Under the pieces are notes generated by a model. That model was not told where the DNA came from, did not search any database, and saw only the letters and a program-made list of their open reading frames with translations. This document shows, piece after piece, positions 426 to 23,848 of a DNA stretch of 23,848 bases (position 1 is its first letter; each line of letters begins with the position of its first letter). Source of the stretch: a virus (taxonomy: Duplodnaviria; Heunggongvirae; Uroviricota; Caudoviricetes); the IMG/VR virus record IMGVR_UViG_2526164619_000004, positions 1 to 23,848 of that record; one strand, 5' to 3'. A program made the translations under genes and the position numbers.

Positions 426-1772
426 CAGTATGACTTTCCGTGAGACAGATGCTGGCCAACGTGGGATATTTAACGCGGGTTAACATCGTTGTCAGAGCCG
501 CATGGGTGAGCTGTTGCTACACCCCGGTATTTCCACCACGGAGGCCAGCATGAACAACAATAACACATTGTACGTCGGGTTAGATGTTCACAAAGAATCG
601 ATTACTGTCGCTTATGCTATCAATTCAGAACCTGTTGAACTGATGGGTAAAATTGGCACATCACCTACTGATATTCAGAATCTTTGTAAACGTCTCAGGT
701 CAAAGTCATCGCAGGTCAGTATCGTTTATGAAGCGTGGCCCTGTGGTTATGGACTTTATCGTCGGCTGGTGAAATCCGGTTTTGACTGCATGGTCTGCGC
801 CCCCTCACTTATCCCGAAAAAACCGGGGGAGCGGGTTAAAACCGATCGCCGTGATGCCATCAGACTTGTGCGTTCACTGCGTGCAGGAGATCTTTCTGCT
901 GTCTACGTACCCGGCATTGAAGATGAGGCATTCCGGGATTTGGCCCGGGCATGGGCATCTGCCCGCGATGATTTACGGCATGCAAGGCAACGTCTGAAAT
1001 CGTTTCTTCTGGTTCATGGGGTCCATTATGTCGGGCGAGCAGATTGGGGCCCTGCACACCGACGCTGGCTCAGCAAATACTCATTCGAAAGTCCCTGGCG
1101 ACAATTAGCTTTTGACGAACACCGTCGTACAATAGAAGACCGGCAGGCACAATGTGAACGGCTGGAATCCGCCCTGAAGGAGGCCGTTACCGAATGGAGG
1201 CTGTGCCCGGTAGTAGAGGCGCTGCAAGCCATGCGAGGGATTCAGTTTATTACTGCGGTTGGATTAATTTCTGAACTGGGTGATCTGACCCGTTTTGAAC
1301 ATCCACGACAACTGATGTCATGGTTTGGTATCACGCCATCAGAATATTCATCGGGTGGAAGCAGACATCAGGGCAGCATTACCAAAGCCGGAAACAGCTA
1401 TGCCAGAAAGCTATTGGTCGAGGCAGCGTGGAGTTACCGTCATCCGGCACGCATCAGTCCGGCAATACAAAAAAGGCAGGAAAATTTACCCCGCCCCGTC
1501 ATTGACAGAGCATGGGATGCTCAACTCAGGCTTTGTAAGAGGTATCGAAAACTTCAGGCCAAAGGAAAGAATGTCAATATTACAATTGTTGCTGTTGCAC
1601 GTGAGCTGGCGGTTTTATCTGGGATATGGGCCGAATAGCAATGTCTGTCGCACAACAACCACAATGTCACAAATAAAAATGAGAATAACCAGTTCCCTGA
1701 AGGCGACGTAGCCCGGTACAAGAGTAACCCACGTTAGCGCTTGGCGACGGCGGAACAAAGCTGATTCGCGAC
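426..1772 (+). mobile_element. IS110-family insertion sequence, about 1.35 kb
   Basis: Single DEDD-type transposase gene flanked by non-coding ends of about 125 bp (left) and about 135 bp (right), with no obvious terminal inverted repeats, as expected for this family. Left boundary inferred from loss of decarboxylase coding signal; right boundary inferred from the start of the IS66 terminal repeat (GTAAG at 1773). Both are approximate. Confidence 0.55.
550..1638 (+). CDS. IS110-family transposase/recombinase (DEDD RuvC-like N-domain plus Transposase_20-type C-domain)
   Basis: ATG at 550 preceded by GGAGG. N-terminus MNNNNTLYVGLDVHKESITVAY matches the family's first catalytic Asp motif. C-terminal region ...ITAVGLISELGDLTRFEHPRQLMSWFGITPSEYSSGGSRHQGSITKAGNSYARKLLVEAAW matches the conserved C-domain. 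The track ORF from 502 is an upstream extension without an RBS. Confidence 0.8.
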   Translation: MNNNNTLYVGLDVHKESITVAYAINSEPVELMGKIGTSPTDIQNLCKRLRSKSSQVSIVYEAWPCGYGLYRRLVKSGFDCMVCAPSLIPKKPGERVKTDRRDAIRLVRSLRAGDLSAVYVPGIEDEAFRDLARAWASARDDLRHARQRLKSFLLVHGVHYVGRADWGPAHRRWLSKYSFESPWRQLAFDEHRRTIEDRQAQCERLESALKEAVTEWRLCPVVEALQAMRGIQFITAVGLISELGDLTRFEHPRQLMSWFGITPSEYSSGGSRHQGSITKAGNSYARKLLVEAAWSYRHPARISPAIQKRQENLPRPVIDRAWDAQLRLCKRYRKLQAKGKNVNITIVAVARELAVLSGIWAE

Positions 1773-1967: not shown

Positions 1968-3558
1968 TTATTTATTGGTGAGTGCTACGTTCCATGGCAG
2001 GAGTTCGTCAACACGGTTGGAAGGCCATTCCGGCAGTACGCTCAGGATATAGCGCAGATACGCTTCCGGATCGATACCGTTCAGTCGGCAGGTGCCGATC
2101 AGCCCGTACAGTAGCGCACCACGCTCTCCACCGTGATCGCTGCCGAAGAACATAAAGTTTTTCTTTCCGAGACAGACTGCACGACGCGCTCTTTCCGCGG
2201 CATTATTATCCGCCTCAGCCAGACCATCATCACTGAAGTTGCACAACGCAACCCAGTGCTTCCTGATATACCGGAACGCATCTCTCAGACGGCATTTTTT
2301 CGATAACGTGTGTTCTTTCTCCTGCATCAGCTTATACAGAGAAGTCAGTAGCAGTTTACTCTGCATTTGCCTGACCGCCAGGCGTTCAGACACCGGCAAC
2401 CCGCGTATTTCGTGCTCGATGGCGTACAGCTCACCGATTAGTTTCAGGGCTTCTTCCGCTGTCGCGCTTTTGGTACTGATATATACATCGTGGACTTTGC
2501 GCCGCGCATGAGCCCAGCATCCTGCTTCCGTCAACGCGCCGCCTTCTCGTTCGGCACTGAACAGCCGATCGTAACCATTAAACGCATCTGCCTGCAGGAT
2601 ACCCCGGAAGGGACTAAGGTGCTGCTCCGGATGTTTACCCTGATGGTCCGGTGAGTAGGCGAACCAGACCGCCGGAGGCTCTGGCGAACCGGCATTCCTG
2701 TCATCCCGGACATACGTCCAGATATATCCTGTTTTCGCCTTCTTCCTGCCCGGTGCCAGCACTTTTACTGGTGTGTCATCAGTGTGAACTTTGCGGCTGT
2801 TCATCACATAACGGTACAGAGCATCATTCAGCGGCGTCATTAACTGGCAGCACGCGTCAACCCAGTTGGAGAGTAATGCACGGCTCAGTTCGACACCCTG
2901 ACGGGCAAAATTTCACTCTGGCGATACAGTGGCAGGTGTTCGCAGTATTTTCCCGTTAACACGCGGGCAAGTAACCCCGGGCCCGCGATACCACGCTCTA
3001 TCGGACGGGATGGTGCCGGTGCTTCAACGATGCAGTCACATTTTGTACAGGCTTTTTTTACCCGTCTGTGCGGATCACTTTCAGAGCGCTGCTCACCAGT
3101 TCCAGTTGTTCTGCGCTGACTTCCCCCAGATAATCCAGCTCACCGCCACACTCCGGGCAACAGCTTTCTTCTGGCTCCAGGCGATTTATTTCGCGGGGCA
3201 GATGCTCCGGTAACGGGCGACGATGACGAGACTGTCGCAACTGGCGGGGAACCTGCGGATCGTCTTCCCGCCCACTGTAACGATCACTGTCCTGTTCGCT
3301 TTGTTTCAGCAGGGCCTCAGCCTGTTCAACTTCACGACGCAGTTTTTCAGAACGGGTACCGAACAGCATCCGGCGCAGTTTTTCTATCTGAGCCCGCAGA
3401 TGTTCTATTTCCCGTTCATCTTCTTCGATCTTTTCTTCGGCGCGGGCCAGTGCAGAGCGCAGGAAGGCCTCCGTCTCTTCAACCAGACTCAGTTGCTGGT
3501 CTTTCTGACGGAGCTGGCATTCCAGTTCTGCAATGCGAATGAGGTATTTTTGATTCAT
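1968..3558 (-). pseudogene. tnpC: IS66-family transposase TnpC, disrupted (frame change plus internal loss)
   Basis: N-terminal 166-aa ORF (3058-3558; MNQKYLIRIAELE...CCPECGGELDY zinc-finger region) and C-terminal 290-aa ORF (1968-2840; ...DDTPVKVL...AGCWAHARRK...) lie in different frames. Only 217 bp separate them where about 240 bp of coding sequence is expected from comparison with copy 2. Confidence 0.75.
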
Positions 3559-15146: not shown

Positions 15147-15480
15147 CGCGTTTTTCAGGCGCGCGTCATCGGCGGCGCATACGAACGCTCGTGGTTTGAT
15201 AACGGTTGATTTATTTTGTTGCACAGAGACGATCGCCAGGCAGGTACCGGAGGCGGGCTCTGAAGTACTGAGTAGCGTGATCGCGTCAGGCCGCGAAGTA
15301 CTGACTCGGATTAATTGCAGGTGATGATGTACTGACCCGGGAATGACTCCGGGCTGATTCAGGTTCTTATTCGCTGTCAGCCCGCGTGGTTGCTGGTCTG
15401 GCTCATTTCCTGCCGTCAGGAGTTCAACTCCCGACTGCAGGTTATGGCCCGGTGCACGAACACCTGACGGCAGGTATCAC

Positions 15481-17081
15481 TCACCCGGAGAAGGTAAATC
15501 CCTCAAGAGGCAGCAACTCTGCCAGTCGCTCCTCCGGCCACTCCGGCAGACGCATCAGGACGTCTGTCAACCAGGCATGCGGCTCCAGACCGTTGCGTTT
15601 CGCGGTTTCCAGCAAGCTCATTATTTGCGCGGCGCGTTCTCCCGCCATCTGCGAACCGGCGAACAGCCACGATTTTCTGCCCAGAACCACGTTTTTGATG
15701 GCCCGTTCACACACATTATTATCCAGCGGCACCGCACCATCTTCCAGGAAGCGGCTCAGTTCCACGCGATGAGACAGCGCATAGGCAATGGCTTTGTGTA
15801 ATGCCTTTCCCGGAGAACATTGCGGTTCCTGCTCTTCAAGCCATGACCACAGTTCTTCCAGTATCGGACGGGCATAACGCTGTCGCCACTGGCGGATTTT
15901 TTCCACGGGGCGGCTACTGATCTTCTTCTCAAGACGGTACAACCCCGCGATTTTCTTCACGGCTATGGCAGCCCGTGGATCTTTACTGATTTATACAGGT
16001 CGGCGAAGCCCCTGCGGGCATGGGCCCAGCATCCGGCCAGCGTGATCTCCGGCACTTTGTTTGCCAGAGTCCGGTAAGCTTTATGTCCGTCGACAACCAG
16101 CGTCCCGCCCCAGCCCTGAAGCCAGTTTTCAGGATACTCATGGCTACGTCCGGTCCGGCAGTCGAAGCACACAACTGACGGTCCCGTCCTTTCTCCACTG
16201 ACGTATGCCCACAGATAACCGGAGCAGGATTTACCGCCTTTCTTCGTGTTCAGGATCTTCAGGGTAGTCTCATCTGCATGCACCACCGGACGGTTTATCA
16301 ACTCGCGATGGAGTAACGCCGCCAGGGGAGATAATTCGGCACCCGCCGCGCCAACCATGTCAGCCATCGAACTGACGGGCAGCCCGACATCTGAACGGGC
16401 AAAGACCTGTTGCTGGCGATACAGAGGCAGGTGGTCACCGTATTTATTGATGATCACCTGTGCGATGACTGATGGCTCAACGGCACTTTTCGGGAGGATA
16501 TGTGCCGGCATTTCACCGCTGAACACCTTCTGACAACAGGGACAACTGTATTGCGGACGGACATAACGGTTCACCACAAAGTGAGCGGGAATATACTCTA
16601 GCTTTTCACTCACCGCATCGCGGATATAGTGCAGCGGCTCGTCACATTCAGGGCAATGGTCAGTGTCCGGCTGGATAATTTTTTCCACCCGTGGAAGATG
16701 AACCGGTAAGGGTTTGCGTATCGGGCGTGAACGGGACGCTTTTTCATCTTCTTCAGGGGATTGCGGGAGCAGTTTATCCAGATGTGCGGTAAGCGCGGCG
16801 ATATCGGCATCAACATCCTCTTCGAATAGGGAGCGTTGCATACCAGCCAGCGTTTCACATTTTTTTCCGAAGCGCTGTTGACGAACCAGTTTCAGCATTT
16901 CTTCCAGAAGCTGGATGCGCCGGCTTTTCTCCAGTAATTCCCGCTCTTTTTCGGCATTCTCCGACATGACTTCTTGTACCATGGCAAGTGCCATAGCACG
17001 CAGTTTTTCGATGTCATTCGTGGTGTTGAGAGCGGAGATATCCATACAGGGGAGTATATCACTCCAGATACGGATATTCAT
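15481..17081 (-). pseudogene. tnpC: IS66-family transposase TnpC with a single-base frameshift
   Basis: 372-aa N-terminal ORF (15963-17081) and 159-aa C-terminal ORF (15481-15960) in different frames. Joining them across the T-run at 15991-15993 restores a continuous protein (...AHARRGFADLYK/ISKDPRAAIAVKKIAGLY...) that is colinear with the copy-1 TnpC. Confidence 0.8.
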
Positions 17082-17087
17082 TATTTT

Positions 17088-17480
17088 TCACTGAGTTAGC
17101 AGTGTATTTTGCGTGTTTTCAGGGCGCAGTTCAGGTTCATTCTGCCAGACCCATTTCGTCAGGTCATGTCCCTTAACCTGCTGCCAGTCAACACCGGCAA
17201 TCAGCCAGTTAAACTCGTCGGGAGTGAGGTGCCAGGCAGCGTCATTTGCACGTGGCCAGCGGAAGCTGCCTTTGTGCAGACGGCGGGTACACAACCACAC
17301 CCCGTGTTTATCCCACCGGAGAACTTTGATACGCGAACGGGCTTTGTTAACAAAGACGAAGGCGGCTCCCTCATGCCATGTCGACCGGAGTTCATCCTGT
17401 ATATACTGCATCAGTGAGTCGATGCCCCGGCGCATGTCAACAGGTTTAATTGCGATGAAGACATTATCAGGACTGAGCAT
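17088..17480 (-). CDS. tnpB: IS66-family Orf2 (TnpB) accessory protein
   Basis: Start MLSPDNVFIAIKPVDMRRGIDSLMQYIQDE... at 17480, overlapping the orf1 stop. The track ORF extending to 17774 is an upstream artefact. Confidence 0.8.
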   Translation of the reverse strand: MLSPDNVFIAIKPVDMRRGIDSLMQYIQDELRSTWHEGAAFVFVNKARSRIKVLRWDKHGVWLCTRRLHKGSFRWPRANDAAWHLTPDEFNWLIAGVDWQQVKGHDLTKWVWQNEPELRPENTQNTLLTQ

Positions 17481-17796
17481 ATTTGAGTGCCCTGAAGACA
17501 TCGGTAAGTTGTGACGGCTGACAGCACATCCGTACTCCACCGGGAAGGAAGAGCGTGACTGGCTCATTCGTGACGGGCTGTGGTACGTCAGCATGCAGTG
17601 GTGGCGCAATATGAACGGGAAGAACGGTCGGTTCATTTGCCCGGCGTTCAGCTTTTGCGACATCCTGCGGCCATTCGCGAAGTGATGTGAAGGGAATATC
17701 GTTGAGTTCATAGTATTGCTGACGTGTAAGACCACTGGCGCGCCAGGCAGCAACGTGCTGCCTTTTCTGTTCAATGGTCCATCGGGGTTTTGACAT
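17467..17796 (-). CDS. tnpA: IS66-family Orf1 (TnpA)
   Basis: 109-aa ORF MSKPRWTIEQKRQHVAAWRASGLTRQQYYELNDIPFTSLREW... at the expected position. Confidence 0.75.
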   Translation of the reverse strand: MSKPRWTIEQKRQHVAAWRASGLTRQQYYELNDIPFTSLREWPQDVAKAERRANEPTVLPVHIAPPLHADVPQPVTNEPVTLFLPGGVRMCCQPSQLTDVFRALKYAQS

Positions 17797-17884
17797 CGAT
17801 TATCTCCGGTAAGTTGGTGAATGGATGTCGGTAATACTAACTGACCGAAGATCCCTGTGAAGATGACTTCCCCGTAACGACACT

Positions 17885-20800
17885 CAAAATTTCGGCAAAT
17901 TCACAGTCATTCCAGTCGGAGATCCAGCGGGCGTCCCGTATGGGCAGTGAATATTACCGGACCCTGCAGAATGGCGGACGTCATGCCGCTGCTGCCGCAC
18001 GGGAACAGCGCCGCGCCCTTGCAGAACTGAACAGTCAGTTGACGGAAATTCGCGGTTCTGCTGTCGGAATGGCTGGCGCATTTGCCGGTGCCTTTGCCAC
18101 CGGACACCTGATTTCGCTGGCCGATGAGTGGGGTTCCGTGAATGCCCGTCTGAAACAGGCATCTCAGTCATCGGATGAATTCTCGTCATCACAGAAAGTG
18201 CTGATGGATATCAGTCAGCGAACAGGTACCGCGTTCTCGGATAATGCGGCCCTGTTTGCCCGTTCGGCTGCCTCGATGCGTGAATATGGTTACAGTGCTG
18301 ATGATGTGCTGAAGGTGACGGAGGCCATTTCGACAGGACTGAAACTGTCAGGGGCTGGAGTTGCGGAATCCGGTTCGGTGATCACCCAGTTCAGCCAGGC
18401 ACTGGCACAGGGTCTACTAGCGTGGCGAAGAATTTAATGCTGTTAACGAAAATGGCGACCGGGTGATCCGCGCGCTTGCTGCGGGGATGGGTGTGGCCCG
18501 TAAAGATCTGAAGGCAATGGCGGATGACGGAAAACTGACAGCGGATAAAGTGGTCCCTGCGTTAATCAGCCAGCTGGGGATATTACGTGATGAATATGCG
18601 GCCATGCCGGAAACGGTTTCCGGTAGTATCACGAAGGTGGAAAACGCCTTTATGGCCTGGGTGGGCGGAGTGAATGAGGCCTGCGGGGTGACAAAAACGC
18701 TCTCCGGTGTGCTGAACGGTGTTGCCGGACAGATTGATAATGTGGCAACAGCTGTGGGGGCGCTGGTTGCCGTCGGGGTTGCCCGGTACTTTGGCAATAT
18801 GGCCTCCGGAGCGATGTCTGCCACGGCAGGACTTGTGACGGCTGCACGTAATGAAGTTGCACTGGCGGAAGCACAGTTCAGGGGAACGCAGATTGCCACG
18901 GCGCGGGCAAGGGCAGCCGTGTACCGTGCTCAGCAGGCCGTGGCGGCAGCCCGCGGGACGGAGATGCAGATTGCTGCAGAGGCCCGTCTGGCGGCCACAC
19001 AGGAACGCCTGAACAGAAATATTGCTGCCAGAAGCGCCGCCCAGAATGCGCTGAACAGTACAACGGCGGTGGGCTCACGTCTGATGAGCGGTGCGCTGGG
19101 GCTGGTTGGTGGCGTACCCGGACTGGTGATGCTGGGGGCTGCAGCATGGTACACGCTGTACCAGAATCAGGAGCAGGCCAGGGAGTCTGCGCGCCAGTAT
19201 GCACTGACGATAGATGAAATCGCGCATAAAACGCCGTCAATGTCTTTGCCTGAAGCCTCAGATAATGAAGGACGAACACGGGCGGCGCTGACAGAGCAGA
19301 ACCGGCTGATTGATGAACAGGCTAGTCGGGTGAAATCCCTGCAGGAAAAAATCGCAGGATATCAGTATGTTCTGGCGAACCCGGGCTGGACGACCGGTGA
19401 CGGATTCATGATAAACCATCTGACCTCGGTGAAGACCGTAACGGAAGGGCTTGCTCAGGCAACAGAGCAGCTTGCCGTTGAGCAGTCCCGTCTGGCACTG
19501 ATGCAGGAAAAAGCGCAGTCCATTCAGGATGTGCTTGCCGGGCTGGAAGACCGTCGTGTGGCGTTAATTCGTCAGCAGGCGGCAGAGCAGAATAAGGTGT
19601 ACCAGTCCATGCTGGTTATGAACGGTCAGCATACGGAATTCAACCGTCTGCTGGGGCTGGGTAATGAACTGCTTCAGCAGCGGCAGGGACTGGTGAATGT
19701 GCCGTTACGGCTGCCACAGGCCACTCTGGATGATAAACAGCAGAGTGCCCTGACAAAAACAGAGCGTGAGCTGGCCCTGTCCAGACTGAAAGGGGAAGAA
19801 AAAGAGCGTGTCCGACTGGGGTATGCGGCGGATGACCTCGGTTTTGTGGGTGATCCGTATCAGGAGGCGAGACAACGTTATATCAGTAATGCCCTGGAAG
19901 CCTGGCGCAATAACGAGGCGAATAAACCCAAATCCCGGGGTGGAAAATCAGAGACGGAAAAAGCGGAAGACAGTTTTTCCCGGCTGCTGAAGCAGCAGAA
20001 AGAGCAACTGGCACTGGCGGGGCAGAATACAGAGCTGGCGAAGCTGAAATACCAGACTGCGCAGGGCGAACTGAAAACCCTGACGGAGATGCAGAAGCAG
20101 GAACTGCTGCGCAATGCGGCCCTGATTGACCAGCAAAAAATCCGGGAGCAGTTGCGGTCCCGGGAAGAGACCCTGAAGAATGATAATGTGGCTGCGCGTG
20201 CATCAAATGAAGCGGAACTGCTGGGGTACGGGCAGGGAGAGCGGCTCCGTGAACGCATGCGGGAGTTGCAGCAGATCCGCGACAGTTTCCGCCAGAAGGA
20301 TGCGGACCTTCAGTCTCAGTATCAGACCGGGGATATCAGTGAGGATTTTTACAGACAGGCTCTGGCATAGAACGCGCAGTATCTGAGTGAACGTCTGAAA
20401 GAGCAGGAAGCCTTTTATGCCGAATCGGATGTGCAGCGTGCGGACTGGCAGAAAGGGCTGCAGGAGGGATTCAGTAACTGGGTGGATAATGCGTCCGATT
20501 ACGCCTCACAGGCAGCACAGCTTGCGACGGAGGGTATCTCAGGGATGGTGAATAACATCACGGAGATGCTGAACGGAAATAAAGTGGAATGGCGCAGCTG
20601 GGCCTCATCAGTGCTGCAGGAAATATCAAAAGTTCTTATGAATGCCGCGATTGTCAACGGGATCAAGACGGCGGCAAACAGTATGTCCGGAGCGGGAGGA
20701 TTTATCGGCAGTATTGGTAGCTGGCTGGGCGGTGCGGTGGCCAATGCAAAAGGCGGTGTGTATACCTCGGCAAACCTGAGTGCGTACAGCAACAGTATTG

Positions 20801-21102
20801 TGGATACGCCCACGTACTTTGCCTTTGCAAAAGGGGCGGGACTGATGGGGGAGGCCGGTCCTGAAGCCATTATGCCCCTGACCCGGGCGGCGGATGGCTC
20901 GCTGGGTGTGCGAGCGGTGGGCAGTATGAACGGCAGTGCAGGTCTGGTGTATTCCCCGGTCTACCATATCGCCATTCAGAATGACGGGACTAATGGCCAG
21001 ATAGGGCCGGAAGCTGCGGGCAGCCTTGTGCAACTGATTGACCAGCGGGTGCAGGCGGTGATGCTGTCCATGCGACGTGACGGAGGAATGCTGAGTGGCT
21101 GA
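17885..21102 (+). pseudogene. H: Tail tape measure protein (lambda H homologue): 5' end removed by the IS, one frameshift, one in-frame amber codon
   Basis: Three colinear segments: 17885-18437 (no start codon near the IS boundary), 18463-20370 and 20431-21102. Frame change about 18418 (...QALAQGLL / RGEEFNAVNENGDRVIRALAAG...). In-frame TAG at 20368-20370 with homology continuing (...YRQALA * NAQYLSERLKEQ...). C-terminal ...AIQNDGTNGQIGPEAAG...MRRDGG parallels the lambda gpH C-terminus (recalled). Confidence 0.8.
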
Positions 21103-21436
21103 GATAAAAACGCTGCATCTGGTCCCGCGTGAAGGGATGCAGGTGAGTGAGAAACCGTCGGTGGCGAGGGTACGGTTTGGTGACGGTTATGAACAGCGCC
21201 GCCCGACGGGACTTAATGCCCGACTGAAGACGTTTCAGGCGGTGTTCCGGGTGACGGATGAGGCGACCCGGCGATGGCTGGAAGAGTTTTTATCGTGGCA
21301 TGGTGGTTACCGTGCCTTTTTGTGGCGACCGCCGAAACATAACCGGACGGTGAGGGTGGTATGCCGGGAGTGGAGCGTCACAGATAACGCCAGGTACAGT
21401 GATTTCAGTTGTACGATTGAGCAGGTGGTGAACTGA
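21095..21436 (+). CDS. M: Minor tail protein (lambda M homologue)
   Basis: GTG start with GGAGG RBS, overlapping the H stop; ...VRFGDGYEQRRPTGLNARLKT...HGGYRAFLWRPP...EQVVN parallels lambda gpM (recalled). Confidence 0.85.
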   Translation: MAEIKTLHLVPREGMQVSEKPSVARVRFGDGYEQRRPTGLNARLKTFQAVFRVTDEATRRWLEEFLSWHGGYRAFLWRPPKHNRTVRVVCREWSVTDNARYSDFSCTIEQVVN

Positions 21437-22134
21437 TGCAGGATATTCGCGAAGAAAGGCTGAACGAGTCGGTTAAGTCAGAGCAGTCACCGCGGGTGGT
21501 ACTCTGGGAAATCGACCTGACGGTACAGGGTGGTGAGCGGTATTTTTTCTGTAATGAGCTGAATGAAAAAGGGGAGCCGGTCACCTGGCAGGGGCGTAAG
21601 TATGAGGCATACCCGATTGACGGCAGCGGCTTTGAGATGAACGGCCGGGGCAGCAGTGCCAGACCGTCGCTGACGGTGTCCAATCTGTTCGGTCTGGTCA
21701 CCGGGATGGCGGAAGACCTGCAGAGTCTGGTGGGGGCCACGGTGGTCCGCCGCCGGGTGTATGCCCGTTTTCTGGATGCGGTGAATTTCGTTGCGGGCAA
21801 TCCGGAGGCGGACCCGGAGCAGGAGCTGAGTGACCGCTGGGTGGTGGAGCAGATGTCGCAGCTGACAGCCATGACGGCCTCGTTTGTGCTGGCTACACCG
21901 ACCGAGACGGACGGGGCGCTGTTTCCCGGTCGTATCATGCTGGCGAACACCTGTATGTGGACCTACCGCTCTGATGAGTGTGGTTACACGGGCGGGGCTG
22001 TGGCGGATGAGTTCGATAAACCCACCACGGATATCCGTAAGGACAGATGCAGCAAGTGCATGCGCGGGTGTGAACTGCGCAGGAATGTCGGCAATTTTGG
22101 CGGTTTCCTTTCCATTAATAAACTTTCGCAGTAA
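21436..22134 (+). CDS. L: Tail tip assembly protein (lambda L homologue) with C-terminal Cys cluster
   Basis: 232-aa ORF; MQDIREERLNE...VVLWEIDLT...GGERYFFCNE...GEPVTWQGR...FPGRIMLANTCMWTYRSDECGY...CSKC...VGNFGGFLSINKLSQ is near-colinear with lambda gpL (recalled). Confidence 0.9.
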   Translation: MQDIREERLNESVKSEQSPRVVLWEIDLTVQGGERYFFCNELNEKGEPVTWQGRKYEAYPIDGSGFEMNGRGSSARPSLTVSNLFGLVTGMAEDLQSLVGATVVRRRVYARFLDAVNFVAGNPEADPEQELSDRWVVEQMSQLTAMTASFVLATPTETDGALFPGRIMLANTCMWTYRSDECGYTGGAVADEFDKPTTDIRKDRCSKCMRGCELRRNVGNFGGFLSINKLSQ

Positions 22135-22144
22135 ATCCCGGTTT

Positions 22145-22888
22145 ATGACACAGACTGAATCAGCGATTCTGGCGCATGCCCGGCGGTGTGCGCCTGCGGA
22201 GTCGTGCGGCTTCGTGATAAGCACGCCGGAGGGGGAGCGGTATATCCCTTGTGTGAATATTTCTGCAGAGCCGGAGGCGTATTTTCGTATCGCACCGGAA
22301 GACTGGCTGCGGGCAGAGATGCAGGGGGAGATTGTGGCACTGGTCCACAGTCATCCCGGTGAGCTGCCCTGGCTGAGCGAGGCTGACCGGCGGCTGCAGA
22401 TAAAAAGCGCACTGCCCTGGTGGCTGGTCTGCCGGGGGGAAATTCATAAATTCCGCTGTGTGCCACATCTGACAGGACGGCGCTTTGAGCACGGGGTGAC
22501 GGACTGTTACACGCTGTTCCGGGATGCATACCATCTGGCGGGAATTGATATGCCGGATTTTCATCGCGAGGATGACTGGTGGCGCAACGGCCAGAACCTG
22601 TACCTGGACAATATGGCGGTCACCGGCTTTTACCGGGTGCCCCTGTCCTCTGCACAGCCGGGCGATATCCTGCTGTGCTGCTTCGGCGCATCGGTGGCTA
22701 ATCATGCCGCCATTTACTGTGGCAACGGTGAACTGCTTCACCATATTCCTGAACAACTGAGTAAACGGGAGAGGTATTCCGAAAAATGGCAACGACGAAC
22801 GCATTCTGTCTGGCGTCACCGCCACTGGCACACATCTGCCTTCACGGGGATTTACAACGATTTGGCCGCCGCCTCAGCCTGTATGTGA
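22145..22888 (+). CDS. K: Tail assembly protein (lambda K homologue) with JAMM/MPN-type metalloprotease motif and NlpC/P60-like domain
   Basis: Start MTQTESAILAHARRCAPAESCGFV... at 22145; motif ALVHSHPGELPWLSEADR; ...HGVTDCYTLFRDAYH... parallels lambda gpK (recalled). The track ORF from 21884 is an unsupported upstream extension. Confidence 0.85.
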   Translation: MTQTESAILAHARRCAPAESCGFVISTPEGERYIPCVNISAEPEAYFRIAPEDWLRAEMQGEIVALVHSHPGELPWLSEADRRLQIKSALPWWLVCRGEIHKFRCVPHLTGRRFEHGVTDCYTLFRDAYHLAGIDMPDFHREDDWWRNGQNLYLDNMAVTGFYRVPLSSAQPGDILLCCFGASVANHAAIYCGNGELLHHIPEQLSKRERYSEKWQRRTHSVWRHRHWHTSAFTGIYNDLAAASACM

Positions 22889-23462
22889 ACACGGCAGCGG
22901 AAGCCATTCGCGCCCTGTCGATGCAGATGCCGGGCTTTCGCCTTCAGATGAACGAAGGCTGGTACCAGATACGTATTGCCGGTGAAAACACGGCACCGGA
23001 GGTGGTGTACGCCCGCCTTCACGAACAGCTGGGTGAGGGAACGGTCATCCACATTGTGCCGCGACTGGCCGGGGCCGGAAAGGGTGGACTGCAGATTGTG
23101 TTGGGGGCGGCAGCCATCGTGGGCTCTTTCTTCACTGCCGGGGCATCAATGGCGTTATGGGGTTCAGCCCTGGCAGCCGGTGGTTTTTCTGCCACCACGA
23201 TGCTGTTTTCACCTGGAGCCAGCATCTGGGCGGTGTGGCCCAGATGCTGGCCCCGAAGGCAAAAACACCGGATTACCGCGCAACGGATAACGGCAGACAG
23301 AACACGTACTTTTCCTCGCTGGATAACATGATTGCCCAGGGGAACCCGATGCCGGTGCCTTACGGGGAAATGCTGGTTGGCTCCCGTCGTATATCCCAGG
23401 ACATCAGCACCCGTGATGAAGGCGGGGGCGGAAAGGTCGTGGTTATCGGGCGACAGGGATAA
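22786..23462 (+). pseudogene. I: Tail assembly protein (lambda I homologue) with a frameshift about 23225
   Basis: MATTNAFCLASPPLAHICLHGDLQRFGRRL...IVLGAAAIVGSFFTAG... is lambda-I-like, then the frame is lost. The conserved C-terminal region (LGGVAQMLAPKAKTP...DNGRQNTYFSSLDNMIAQGN...YGEM...GGGGKVVVIGR) is in another frame, ending at TAA 23460-23462. Confidence 0.8.
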
Positions 23463-23465
23463 AAC

Positions 23466-23500
23466 ATAAAAAAATCCCGCAGTGATCGCGGAGCTGCGGG
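23466..23500 (-). terminator. Rho-independent terminator on the minus strand, immediately 3' of the I stop codon
   Basis: Minus-strand hairpin CCCGCAG-CTCCGCGATCA-CTGCGGG followed by ATTTTTTTA (plus-strand 23476-23500 preceded by A7 at 23468-23474). Confidence 0.5.
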
Positions 23501-23561
23501 GACAGACAAAGATTAGAGTTAAGGAGTTGTTTTTGTTACCCGGGCAAAAAAACACTAACGC
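23467..23561 (-). ncRNA. Candidate small RNA of about 95 nt (promoter to terminator) in the I-J moron
   Basis: Region between the predicted minus-strand promoter and terminator. Predicted transcript GCGUUAGUGUUUUUUUGCCCGGGUAACAAAAACAACUCCUUAACUCUAAUCUUUGUCUGUCC plus terminator hairpin and U7 tail. No ORF with a plausible start. Hypothetical, from sequence only. Confidence 0.3.
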
Positions 23562-23567
23562 AGAGAA

Positions 23568-23595
23568 ATTATAAGCGCCACAGTCAGTGTGTGAA
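23568..23595 (-). promoter_or_regulatory. Candidate sigma70 promoter on the minus strand
   Basis: Minus-strand TTCACA (-35; plus 23590-23595), a 16-nt spacer, then consensus TATAAT (-10; plus 23568-23573). Confidence 0.35.
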
Positions 23596-23633
23596 AATGT
23601 GAAGATATTCAGAAATTTTATTCCGTCATGACG

Positions 23634-23664
23634 CAGGCACCCGGTGAGGTGCCTGTTGTTTTTG
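23634..23664 (+). terminator. Rho-independent terminator on the plus strand, just upstream of the J RBS
   Basis: CAGGCACC-CGGTGA-GGTGCCTG hairpin followed by TTGTTTTTG. Confidence 0.5.
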
Positions 23665-23698
23665 TGAGTGAACAATTATCACGGTAAGAGGTGATGTA

Positions 23699-23848
23699 AT
23701 GGGCAAAGGTGGCGGCAGGGCGCACACACCGCGTGAGGCGAAAGACAATCTCAAATCCACGCAGATGATGAGCGTGATTGATGCGATTGGTGAGGGACCG
23801 ATAGAAGGCCCGGTGAAAGGCCTGCAGAGTATTCTGGTGAACAAAACC
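23699..23848 (+). CDS. J: Tail tip / host specificity protein (lambda J homologue), 5' end only; continues past the window
   Basis: AAGAGGTGA RBS then ATG at 23699; MGKGGGRAHTPREAKDNLKSTQMMSVIDAIGEGPIEGPVKGLQSILVNKT is colinear with the lambda gpJ N-terminus (recalled). Confidence 0.85.
   Translation, partial: MGKGGGRAHTPREAKDNLKSTQMMSVIDAIGEGPIEGPVKGLQSILVNKT

What the first reader, a model, noticed from the sequence alone, without database searches (positions are those of the whole stretch)
23463..23698. Moron-like 236-bp insert between tail genes I and J with a candidate small RNA
In lambda, I and J abut. Here they are separated by 236 bp that carry a near-consensus minus-strand promoter (TTCACA-N16-TATAAT), a strong minus-strand intrinsic terminator (7-bp GC stem plus U7) about 95 nt downstream, and a second terminator on the plus strand just before the J RBS. 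No ORF above 15 codons is present. The predicted minus-strand transcript has a 5' stem-loop (GUGUUUUUUUG...CAAAAACA), a single-stranded CU-rich stretch (ACUCCUUAACUCUAAUCUUUGUCUGUCC) and a terminator hairpin with U-tail, the architecture typical of Hfq-dependent trans-acting sRNAs. A self-contained transcription unit embedded antisense in a decayed late operon would be a prophage-borne regulatory RNA kept while structural genes decay. The plus strand also has a strong SD (AAGGAG) followed by a 13-codon TTG-initiated mini-ORF (23533-23574), which the candidate RNA would be antisense to.
Basis: partly seen in the sequence, partly recalled or inferred. Interest (0 to 1): 0.65.

Follow-up and report, generated by a model that had tools for sequence, protein, structure and literature searches.

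The report
Known prophage small RNA PasB

Summary
The I-J spacer (23463-23698) has a minus-strand promoter (TTCACA-N16-TATAAT), a minus-strand terminator (7-bp stem, U7) and a plus-strand hairpin with a T-run before J. The published Northern probe for PasB of EPEC E2348/69 matches window 23473-23495 exactly. The whole spacer aligns with the E2348/69 I-J spacer; differences are a 4-nt indel and about eight substitutions. PasB is an 83-nt, Hfq-stabilised sRNA with 37 RIL-seq partners. After a +128 coordinate correction, the EHEC Sakai Hfq-CRAC peaks EcOnc22/23/24 (~85 nt, destabilised without Hfq) fall on the homologous RNA in the I-J spacers of Sp15, Sp14 and Sp11. I found this link stated in none of the papers read.

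In 59 distinct variants from viral contigs, the conserved parts are the -10, a GCGUUA 5' end, a U-run, three or more ARN triplets, a core resembling the 16S anti-Shine-Dalgarno sequence (ACUCCUUA), a UUAAUCUUC box and the terminator. A CRP-like site (TGTGA-N6-TCAGA) upstream of the -35 is present in all 47 terminator-anchored variants. The predicted 5' stem-loop and the mini-ORF are not conserved. The surrounding prophage is decayed (I frameshift, IS66 in the tail genes) while the cassette is intact. Targets and function remain unknown. Novelty: already known.

The parts
22885..23462 (+). Tail assembly gene I, a pseudogene here (4-bp deletion near 23224 splits it into ORFs 22786-23331 and 23157-23462)
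   Evidence: Alignment to intact E2348/69 I, 98% identity with one 4-nt gap; ORF list; annotation of the homologue
23468..23561 (-). PasB-family sRNA gene. The 3' end at 23468 is placed by homology to the annotated PasB 3' end. The predicted TSS is G at 23561, 7 nt after the -10. The annotated 5' end of E2348/69 PasB maps to 23546.
   Evidence: PasB Northern probe matches 23473-23495 exactly; spacer alignment; PasB coordinates from PMC8550237 Table S6; E2348/69 sequence
23468..23500 (-). Intrinsic terminator: 5' arm CCCGCAG (23500->23494), 11-nt loop, 3' arm CUGCGGG (23482->23476), A, then U7 (23474->23468)
   Evidence: the only helix in the RNAalifold consensus of 23 variants, with one compensatory G-C to A-U change
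23507..23528 (-). Single-stranded candidate seed. It holds ACUCCUUAA (CUCCUU = 23526->23521), which resembles the 16S rRNA 3' end, and a second box CUAAUCUUUG (23516->23507). The second box carries the 4-nt deletion that distinguishes this allele from PasB.
   Evidence: Alignments; motif counts over 59 variants; Zhu et al. place the putative PasB seed just upstream of the terminator
23527..23538 (-). Four consecutive ARN triplets (AAC AAA AAC AAC), a candidate binding site for the distal face of Hfq
   Evidence: At least 3 ARN triplets in 54 of 59 variants against 2.9% of shuffles
23546..23552 (-). U7 run near the 5' end. In this copy it pairs with the A-rich stretch in the predicted fold.
   Evidence: the helix is not conserved
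23568..23595 (-). Sigma-70-type promoter: -35 TTCACA (23595->23590), 16-nt spacer, -10 TATAAT (23573->23568)
   Evidence: Positions 2, 3 and 5 of the -10 are invariant and position 6 nearly invariant across the family, while the -35 varies
23595..23616 (.). CRP-like site AAATGTGAAGATATTCAGAAAT (core TGTGA-N6-TCAGA at 23598-23613), centred about 44.5 nt upstream of the predicted TSS
   Evidence: 9 of 10 core match. Present in all 47 distinct variants chosen by their terminator alone, and 44.5 nt from the conserved GCGUUA in 44 of the 46 where that anchor could be measured
23633..23666 (+). Plus-strand terminator-like hairpin with a T-run just upstream of the J ribosome-binding site. It is probably a feature of the I-J junction rather than of the sRNA cassette.
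   Evidence: The stem is kept, with C-G changing to U.G and to U-A among relatives. Lambda's own 60-bp spacer shows a hairpin and T-run by eye, but the scan does not list it
23687..23848 (+). J ribosome-binding site (AAGAGGTGA, 23687-23695) and the start of host-specificity gene J (ATG 23699), cut off by the window end

Best explanation
The spacer carries an allele of pasB. This is a roughly 150-bp moron inserted between the stop codon of tail gene I and the hairpin that precedes J. It is transcribed from its own promoter on the strand antisense to the late operon and ends at its own intrinsic terminator. The product is a 79-94-nt Hfq-dependent sRNA expressed from the prophage independently of lytic growth. 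Shown for homologues in EPEC and EHEC: the transcript exists, has the expected size, binds Hfq, needs Hfq for stability, and forms chimeras with many mRNAs. Inferred here: (i) the RNA binds Hfq through its U7 tail and an (ARN)4 stretch, in the manner of class II sRNAs; (ii) it pairs with the Shine-Dalgarno regions of target mRNAs through the conserved core ACUCCUUA, which resembles the 3' end of 16S rRNA (ACCUCCUUA), and so blocks translation initiation; (iii) the adjacent UUAAUCUUC box, altered in this allele by a 4-nt deletion, tunes which targets are chosen; (iv) transcription may be activated by cAMP-CRP through the invariant TGTGA-N6-TCAGA site.
For: Identity: the PasB probe matches exactly. 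The I-J spacer aligns end to end with E2348/69. The position and strand agree with PasB at NC_011601.1 1466343->1466261, between I and J. Position 27 (C in PasB, A in the commonest variant) matches the PasB/PasB-2 difference described by Zhu et al.. Expression and Hfq: PMC8550237; EcOnc22-24 in PMC4104026. The +128 coordinate offset was validated on HnrS. Conservation: 59 distinct variants keep the -10, GCGUUA, the U-run, ARN repeats, the CUCC core, UUAAUCUUC and the terminator. A paralogue carries ACCUCCUUA exactly. CRP idea: the site is present in 47 of 47 variants. PasB is higher in overnight static LB than in DMEM, whereas CRP-repressed Spf behaves the opposite way.
Against: No expression data exist for this strain or this allele. 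No PasB target has been validated, and no target motif was reported for PasB. The fold is no more stable than shuffles, and only the terminator is a consensus helix. The annotated PasB 5' end lies 15 nt downstream of the TSS implied by the -10. The CRP-like site sits near -44.5, not the canonical -41.5 or -61.5. Growth phase, oxygen or RpoS could equally explain the expression pattern. Rfam has no model that matches.
Confidence: 0.9

Rival explanations
1. The RNA acts mainly in cis. It is fully complementary to the late I-J transcript, so it would pair with that mRNA (RNase III cleavage), or its convergent transcription would interfere with late transcription. Either way it would damp expression of J and downstream tail-fibre genes in lysogens or time it during lytic growth.
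For: The gene is always antisense to the late operon at the same I-J position. The cassette sits directly upstream of the J leader.
Against: In EPEC the RNA forms Hfq-dependent chimeras with many core and accessory mRNAs. It is kept intact here although I and the tape-measure gene are already broken, so it is not maintained for phage assembly. This reading does not exclude trans action.
Confidence: 0.15
2. It is an sRNA sponge (anti-sRNA) like AgvB. The CA-rich stretch AACAAAAACAAC would mimic target sites of GU-rich seeds such as GcvB R1 and titrate a core sRNA.
For: The window and PasB alleles carry ACAAAAACAAC. Other prophage sRNAs of EHEC work this way (PMC4104026). A PasB chimera with the pasA region shows RNA-RNA contacts beyond mRNAs.
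Against: The CA-rich sequence is not conserved; the EcOnc22 type has GAAAAAUAAC and others have AAGAAUAAU. What is kept is the ARN periodicity, not the sequence. No Rfam AgvB or AsxR match appears even at E <= 10. The genomic position differs (I-J, not the PR' moron site).
Confidence: 0.08
3. In this strain the cassette is a silent remnant: conserved by recent descent inside a decaying prophage, but not transcribed or not functional.
For: The prophage is decayed. There are no expression data for this host. The allele has a 4-nt deletion in the putative seed region.
Against: The promoter, CRP-like site, ARN stretch, core and terminator are all intact. An independent contig (L055) matches the window over 8.7 kb at 99.9% identity, including an identical 305-nt stretch spanning the spacer. 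The same deletion allele recurs in about a dozen other viral contigs with different flanks, so it is a circulating variant, not a private lesion.
Confidence: 0.07
4. The spacer encodes a small protein: the 13-codon TTG ORF behind AAGGAG, or the 30-codon GTG ORF at 23482-23574.
For: AAGGAG lies 6 nt before the TTG, and the ORFs are listed.
Against: AAGGAG is simply the complement of the sRNA's CUCCUU core. The EcOnc22-type relatives have no start codon there. The A-run inside the ORF varies from 6 to 9 nt, and a 4-nt indel breaks the longer ORF among close alleles.
Confidence: 0.02

Closest known systems
PasB (E2348CN_0006) of EPEC O127:H6 E2348/69, prophage PP6 (Pearl Mizrahi et al. 2021, PMC8550237; Zhu, Shabalina and Storz 2026, bioRxiv 10.64898/2026.05.13.724894)
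   Same: Same locus (I-J spacer, antisense). Identical terminator, probe site, promoter hexamers, U-run and ARN stretch; the window has CCCGGG where PasB has CCCGAG between them. The spacer aligns with one 4-nt indel and about eight substitutions.
   Different: The window allele lacks 4 nt and has four substitutions in the stretch between CUCCUU and the terminator (CUCUAAUCUUUG against CAUUGAUCUUCAUUUG). It has A, not C, at PasB position 27. It sits in a decayed prophage. No complete E. coli genome in the collection exceeds 96.5% identity over the spacer.
EcOnc22, EcOnc23 and EcOnc24 of EHEC O157:H7 Sakai (prophages Sp15/Stx1, Sp14, Sp11; Tree et al. 2014, PMC4104026)
   Same: Same I-J position and strand. 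Same terminator stem, CRP-like block, GCGUUA-type 5' end, U-run, ARN run, CUCC core and UUAAUCUUC box. About 85 nt, Hfq-bound and Hfq-stabilised.
   Different: About 81% identity over the spacer. The -35 and -10 are weaker (AATAAT), the region between U-run and ARN stretch is shorter, and the core is CUCCAU. The equivalence to PasB is my inference; it depends on a +128 coordinate shift between NC_002695.1 and NC_002695.2 and is not noted in Table S6 of PMC8550237.
AgvB and AsxR anti-sRNAs (EcOnc01/02)
   Same: Prophage-borne, Hfq-binding, short morons with their own promoter and terminator; AgvB also has an ARN motif.
   Different: They lie downstream of PR', next to stx or lysis genes, are 51-60 nt, and share a different conserved 3' region. 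No Rfam match here.
HnrS (EcOnc10-12), a prophage sRNA that represses hha (PMC13502914)
   Same: A multicopy sRNA in the late region of lambdoid prophages that pairs with a ribosome-binding site through a CUUCU seed.
   Different: It lies between the Rz endopeptidase gene and the terminase genes, is 66 nt, and has an unrelated sequence.

Membership tests
PasB sRNA family | Sequence homology to E2348/69 PasB, including its Northern probe site | tested here: met
   Probe AATCCCGCAGTGATCGCGGAGCT matches 23473-23495 with 0 mismatches and 0 expected by chance. The spacer aligns end to end.
PasB sRNA family | Location in the spacer between tail genes I and J, on the strand antisense to them | tested here: met
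   PasB lies at 1466261-1466343 (-), between I (ends 1466255) and J (starts 1466496).
PasB sRNA family | Rho-independent terminator with a U-tract at the 3' end | tested here: met
PasB sRNA family | Own promoter giving an 80-95-nt transcript | tested here: inconclusive
   A consensus match and a conserved -10 support it. No transcript data exist for this strain, and the 5' end is ambiguous (23561 against 23546).
PasB sRNA family | Hfq binding, Hfq-dependent stability, and trans partners | not testable with these tools
   Shown only for the homologues (PMC8550237, PMC4104026).
Class II-like Hfq sRNA (ARN motif plus U-rich 3' end) | At least 3 ARN repeats in a single-stranded region, together with a terminator poly-U tail | tested here: met
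   (ARN)4 in the window; at least 3 repeats in 54 of 59 variants against 2.9% of shuffles. Binding to the Hfq faces is not testable here.
AgvB/AsxR anti-sRNA family (Rfam RF02702, RF02703) | Match to the family model, and location at the PR' moron site | tested here: not met
   No Rfam hit at the gathering score or at E <= 10. The location is the I-J spacer.
HnrS (EcOnc10-12) | The 66-nt sequence with a CUUCU seed, located between Rz and the terminase genes | tested here: not met
   The locus and sequence differ.
cAMP-CRP-activated promoter | TGTGA-N6-TCACA site centred at -41.5 or -61.5 | tested here: inconclusive
   The core matches 9 of 10 with a perfect left half, and the site is invariant in the family. 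The centre falls near -44.5 from the predicted TSS. One such site is expected by chance in the whole window (0.86).

The most novel reading that the evidence does not exclude
The I-J junction of lambdoid prophages may be a dedicated slot for a diversifying family of regulatory RNAs. PasB, EcOnc22-24, further alleles and tandem paralogues would share a fixed control and chassis module: a CRP-like operator, the -10, a GCGUUA 5' end, ARN repeats, a core resembling the 16S anti-Shine-Dalgarno sequence, and the terminator. The flanking seed positions would vary. Prophages would then wire a nutrient-sensing, ribosome-binding-site-masking RNA into host translation, with each allele reaching different targets.
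Probability: 0.3. Interest if true: 0.5.

Novelty: already known. Interest (0 to 1): 0.25.

Why it matters
This is a useful positive control for the scan. Reading the sequence alone recovered a real, experimentally validated prophage sRNA, with the correct strand and 3' end. The biology itself is published, so the finding adds little. The by-products are modest but testable. PasB of EPEC and EcOnc22-24 of EHEC appear to be one family at one conserved prophage position. The family shares a core resembling the anti-Shine-Dalgarno sequence and an ARN tract, which suggests how it binds Hfq and its targets. An invariant CRP-like site suggests how it is regulated. No function has yet been assigned to PasB or to EcOnc22, so these leads could guide the first functional experiments.

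Tried and rejected
- Rfam at the gathering score over the whole window, and at E <= 10 over the spacer, gave no family. The weak Hrs1 and Ref84 matches are terminator look-alikes.
- AgvB/AsxR was my first recollection. It is rejected because those genes sit at the PR' moron site.
- HnrS (EcOnc10-12) is rejected because it lies between Rz and the terminase genes.
- An exact search for the window allele in one genome per species found nothing.
- The family terminator pattern found only two true copies there, on tiny contigs filed under Streptomyces and Parendozoicomonas and probably contaminants, plus two chance matches in GC-rich MAGs.
- I tried to pull the PasB RIL-seq target rows from the supplementary table with phrase searches. 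This found nothing because the table is tab-separated, so I could not check targets against the proposed seed.
- A conserved 5' stem-loop is not supported by RNAalifold.
- Coding potential of the mini-ORF, the 30-codon ORF and the 218-codon antisense ORF is rejected because of indels that are not multiples of 3.
- No plus-strand promoter was found that would make the plus-strand hairpin the end of a second sRNA.
- The scan did not list the hairpin I see by eye in lambda's spacer.

Full report
**1. The observation**

The window ends in the tail-tip genes of a lambdoid prophage. Gene I stops at 23462 and J starts at ATG 23699. The homologous E2348/69 genes are annotated as tail assembly protein and gpJ.

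- a minus-strand promoter, TTCACA-N16-TATAAT (23595->23568, 11 of 12);
- a minus-strand terminator followed by U7;
- a plus-strand hairpin at 23633-23656 followed by TGTTTTTGTG.

These matches are not significant on their own. There are 2 promoter-like sites against 0.7 expected and 2 terminator-like sites against 1.1. The predicted fold is no more stable than shuffles (z = -0.40).

Two details in the finding are wrong. Lambda I and J are 60 bp apart, not abutting. ORFs longer than 15 codons do exist mechanically: a 30-codon ORF on the plus strand inside the spacer and a 218-codon ORF on the minus strand crossing it.

**2. What it is**

Rfam gave nothing, but the literature did. Pearl Mizrahi et al. 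2021 (PMC8550237) found five prophage sRNAs in EPEC E2348/69 by Hfq RIL-seq. Their Table S6 describes PasB as 83 nt, on the minus strand at NC_011601.1 1466343->1466261, in prophage PP6, with Northern probe AATCCCGCAGTGATCGCGGAGCT.

That probe matches window 23473-23495 on the plus strand with no mismatch, so it detects a minus-strand RNA. In E2348/69 the PasB coordinates lie between I (ends 1466255) and J (starts 1466496). The two spacers align end to end and differ by one 4-nt indel and about eight substitutions.

The published evidence for PasB is as follows:
- it was confirmed by Northern blot;
- its log2 fold change in the hfq mutant versus wild type is -6.8 (activating condition) and -2.4 (non-activating);
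- it has 37 RIL-seq interactions;
- it is higher in overnight static LB than in DMEM.

[quoted passage not shown] PasB is embedded in phage structural operons and often lies outside intact prophages. Their PasB/PasB-2 difference at position 27 corresponds to the C/A difference I see between E2348/69 and the commonest allele.

**3. The EHEC link**

Tree et al. 2014 (PMC4104026, Table S2) list the Hfq-CRAC peaks EcOnc22 (Sp15), EcOnc23 (Sp14) and EcOnc24 (Sp11) as homologues of one another. EcOnc22 is about 85 nt on a Northern blot and is destabilised in the hfq mutant.

All three peaks fall in I-J spacers, antisense to I and J. Their coordinates refer to NC_002695.1. Using the HnrS copies as a ruler, the peaks land on the sRNA body only after adding 128 nt, which is the length difference to NC_002695.2. 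With that shift, EcOnc22 covers exactly the body of the PasB-homologous RNA, just 5' of its terminator.

A 2021 review still lists the targets of EcOnc22 as unknown. Table S6 of the EPEC paper notes no EHEC homologue for PasB, and the 2026 preprint does not mention EcOnc. The equivalence therefore appears not to have been stated in print.

AgvB/AsxR (PR' moron site) and HnrS (between Rz and the terminase genes) are different loci.

**4. Family anatomy**

I scanned IMG/VR twice: once with the terminator as anchor and once with the upstream block as anchor. Together they gave 59 distinct RNA variants.

One contig, L055, matches the window over 8.7 kb at 99.9% identity, and a 305-nt stretch spanning the spacer is identical. 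The 4-nt-deletion allele recurs in about a dozen other contigs.

In RNA sense, the conserved elements are:
- positions 2, 3 and 5 of the -10 (invariant), with position 6 nearly so;
- a GCGUUA 5' end;
- a U-run;
- a variable segment;
- at least 3 consecutive ARN triplets, in 54 of 59 variants against 2.9% of shuffles;
- the core AACUCCUU or a close variant;
- the box UUAAUCUUC;
- the 7-bp terminator and U7.

RNAalifold keeps only the terminator helix, with one compensatory G-C to A-U change in L136. The 5' stem-loop predicted for this copy is therefore not a family feature.

The core resembles the 3' end of E. coli 16S rRNA (ACCUCCUUA, from established knowledge). A paralogous cassette carries that nonamer exactly. 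The mini-ORF behind it is absent from the EcOnc22 type and is frameshifted by length changes in the A-run.

**5. Regulation lead**

Upstream of the -35 lies AAATGTGAAGATATTCAGAAAT (23595-23616). Its core, TGTGA-N6-TCAGA, matches the CRP consensus at 9 of 10 positions, with a perfect left half.

Among the variants chosen by their terminator alone, 47 of 47 keep this site. In 44 of the 46 where the anchor could be measured, its centre is 44.5 nt from the conserved G of GCGUUA. The -35 region in between varies freely.

PasB is higher in glucose-free stationary LB, and CRP-repressed Spf behaves the opposite way. This fits cAMP-CRP activation. However, the spacing is not the canonical -41.5, and growth phase or oxygen could explain the same pattern. 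I rate this step at about 0.35.

**6. The rest of the spacer and the surroundings**

The plus-strand hairpin is conserved in the window, PasB and Sp15 types, with the stem maintained through C-G, U.G and U-A. In other relatives, different modules replace it between the PasB control block and J; some of these are a second sRNA-like cassette.

Lambda's own 60-bp spacer shows a GC hairpin and a T-run by eye, although the scan does not list it. I therefore treat the hairpin as a feature of the I-J junction, read through by antiterminated polymerase. On this view the moron is roughly 23463-23620.

The prophage is decayed. Gene I has a 4-bp deletion. The tape-measure gene is in pieces downstream of an IS66 insertion, and IS110 and IS66 transposase genes lie upstream. 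The sRNA cassette is intact.

**7. Mechanism, novelty and verdict**

The most likely mechanism is an Hfq-dependent, trans-acting sRNA expressed from the lysogen. It would mask Shine-Dalgarno regions through its anti-SD-like core, with neighbouring positions setting the specificity.

Identity with the PasB family has confidence about 0.9. The pairing mechanism is an inference, at about 0.5. The rivals are cis-antisense control of J, an sRNA sponge, a silent remnant and a small protein; they are weighed in the report sections.

The element is already known, so interest is low.

Noticed in passing
window 502-1638 (+), 1968-2840 (-), 15963-17774 (-): There is an IS110-family transposase ORF and two sets of IS66 ORFs (transposase fragments and TnpB/Orf2). 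The second set sits immediately upstream of the tape-measure gene, which is itself split into ORFs 17940-18437, 18463-20370 and 20431-21102.
   Followed up: partly
window about 23224: Gene I has a 4-bp deletion relative to the intact E2348/69 gene, which frameshifts it. The sRNA cassette 240 bp downstream is intact.
   Followed up: yes
L009 (9951 and 10130), L030 (4545 and 5016), L037 (4153 and 4332), L061, L016, L103: Some phage contigs carry two cassettes in tandem about 180-470 bp apart. The second has the same CRP-like block, -10, GCGUUAC start and U-run. It differs in having the core ACCUCCUUAAGG and another terminator (CUCCCGU...ACGGGAG), so it looks like a diverged paralogous sRNA gene.
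   Followed up: partly
NC_002695 (L003, L004, L007): The EcOnc coordinates in Tree et al. 2014 refer to NC_002695.1 and must be shifted by +128 to fit NC_002695.2. Without the shift the peaks fall on unrelated sequence.
   Followed up: yes
L130 (NZ_JBHTEB010000006.1, filed as Streptomyces flavalbus, 3408 bp) and L128 (NZ_FWPT01000051.1, filed as Parendozoicomonas haliclonae, 460 bp): Two tiny contigs filed under unrelated bacteria carry this enterobacterial phage cassette. They are probably assembly contaminants.
   Followed up: no
window 23526-23536 and 23655-23665 (+): The 11-nt sequence GTTGTTTTTGT occurs twice. One copy is the complement of the ARN stretch of the sRNA and the other is the T-run of the plus-strand hairpin. 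This may be chance.
   Followed up: no
L127 (lambda 15445-15504): Lambda's I-J spacer is 60 bp. By eye it contains the hairpin CCGCC-TGCG-GGCGG followed by TTTTGTCATTT just before the J ribosome-binding site, analogous in position to the window's plus-strand hairpin. The consensus scan did not report it.
   Followed up: partly
window 17884-23848: The tail region is at most 96.8% identical to any of the 5,426 complete E. coli genomes searched, but 99.9% identical to IMG/VR contig IMGVR_UViG_2526164619_000010. The host species of the window was not identified.
   Followed up: partly
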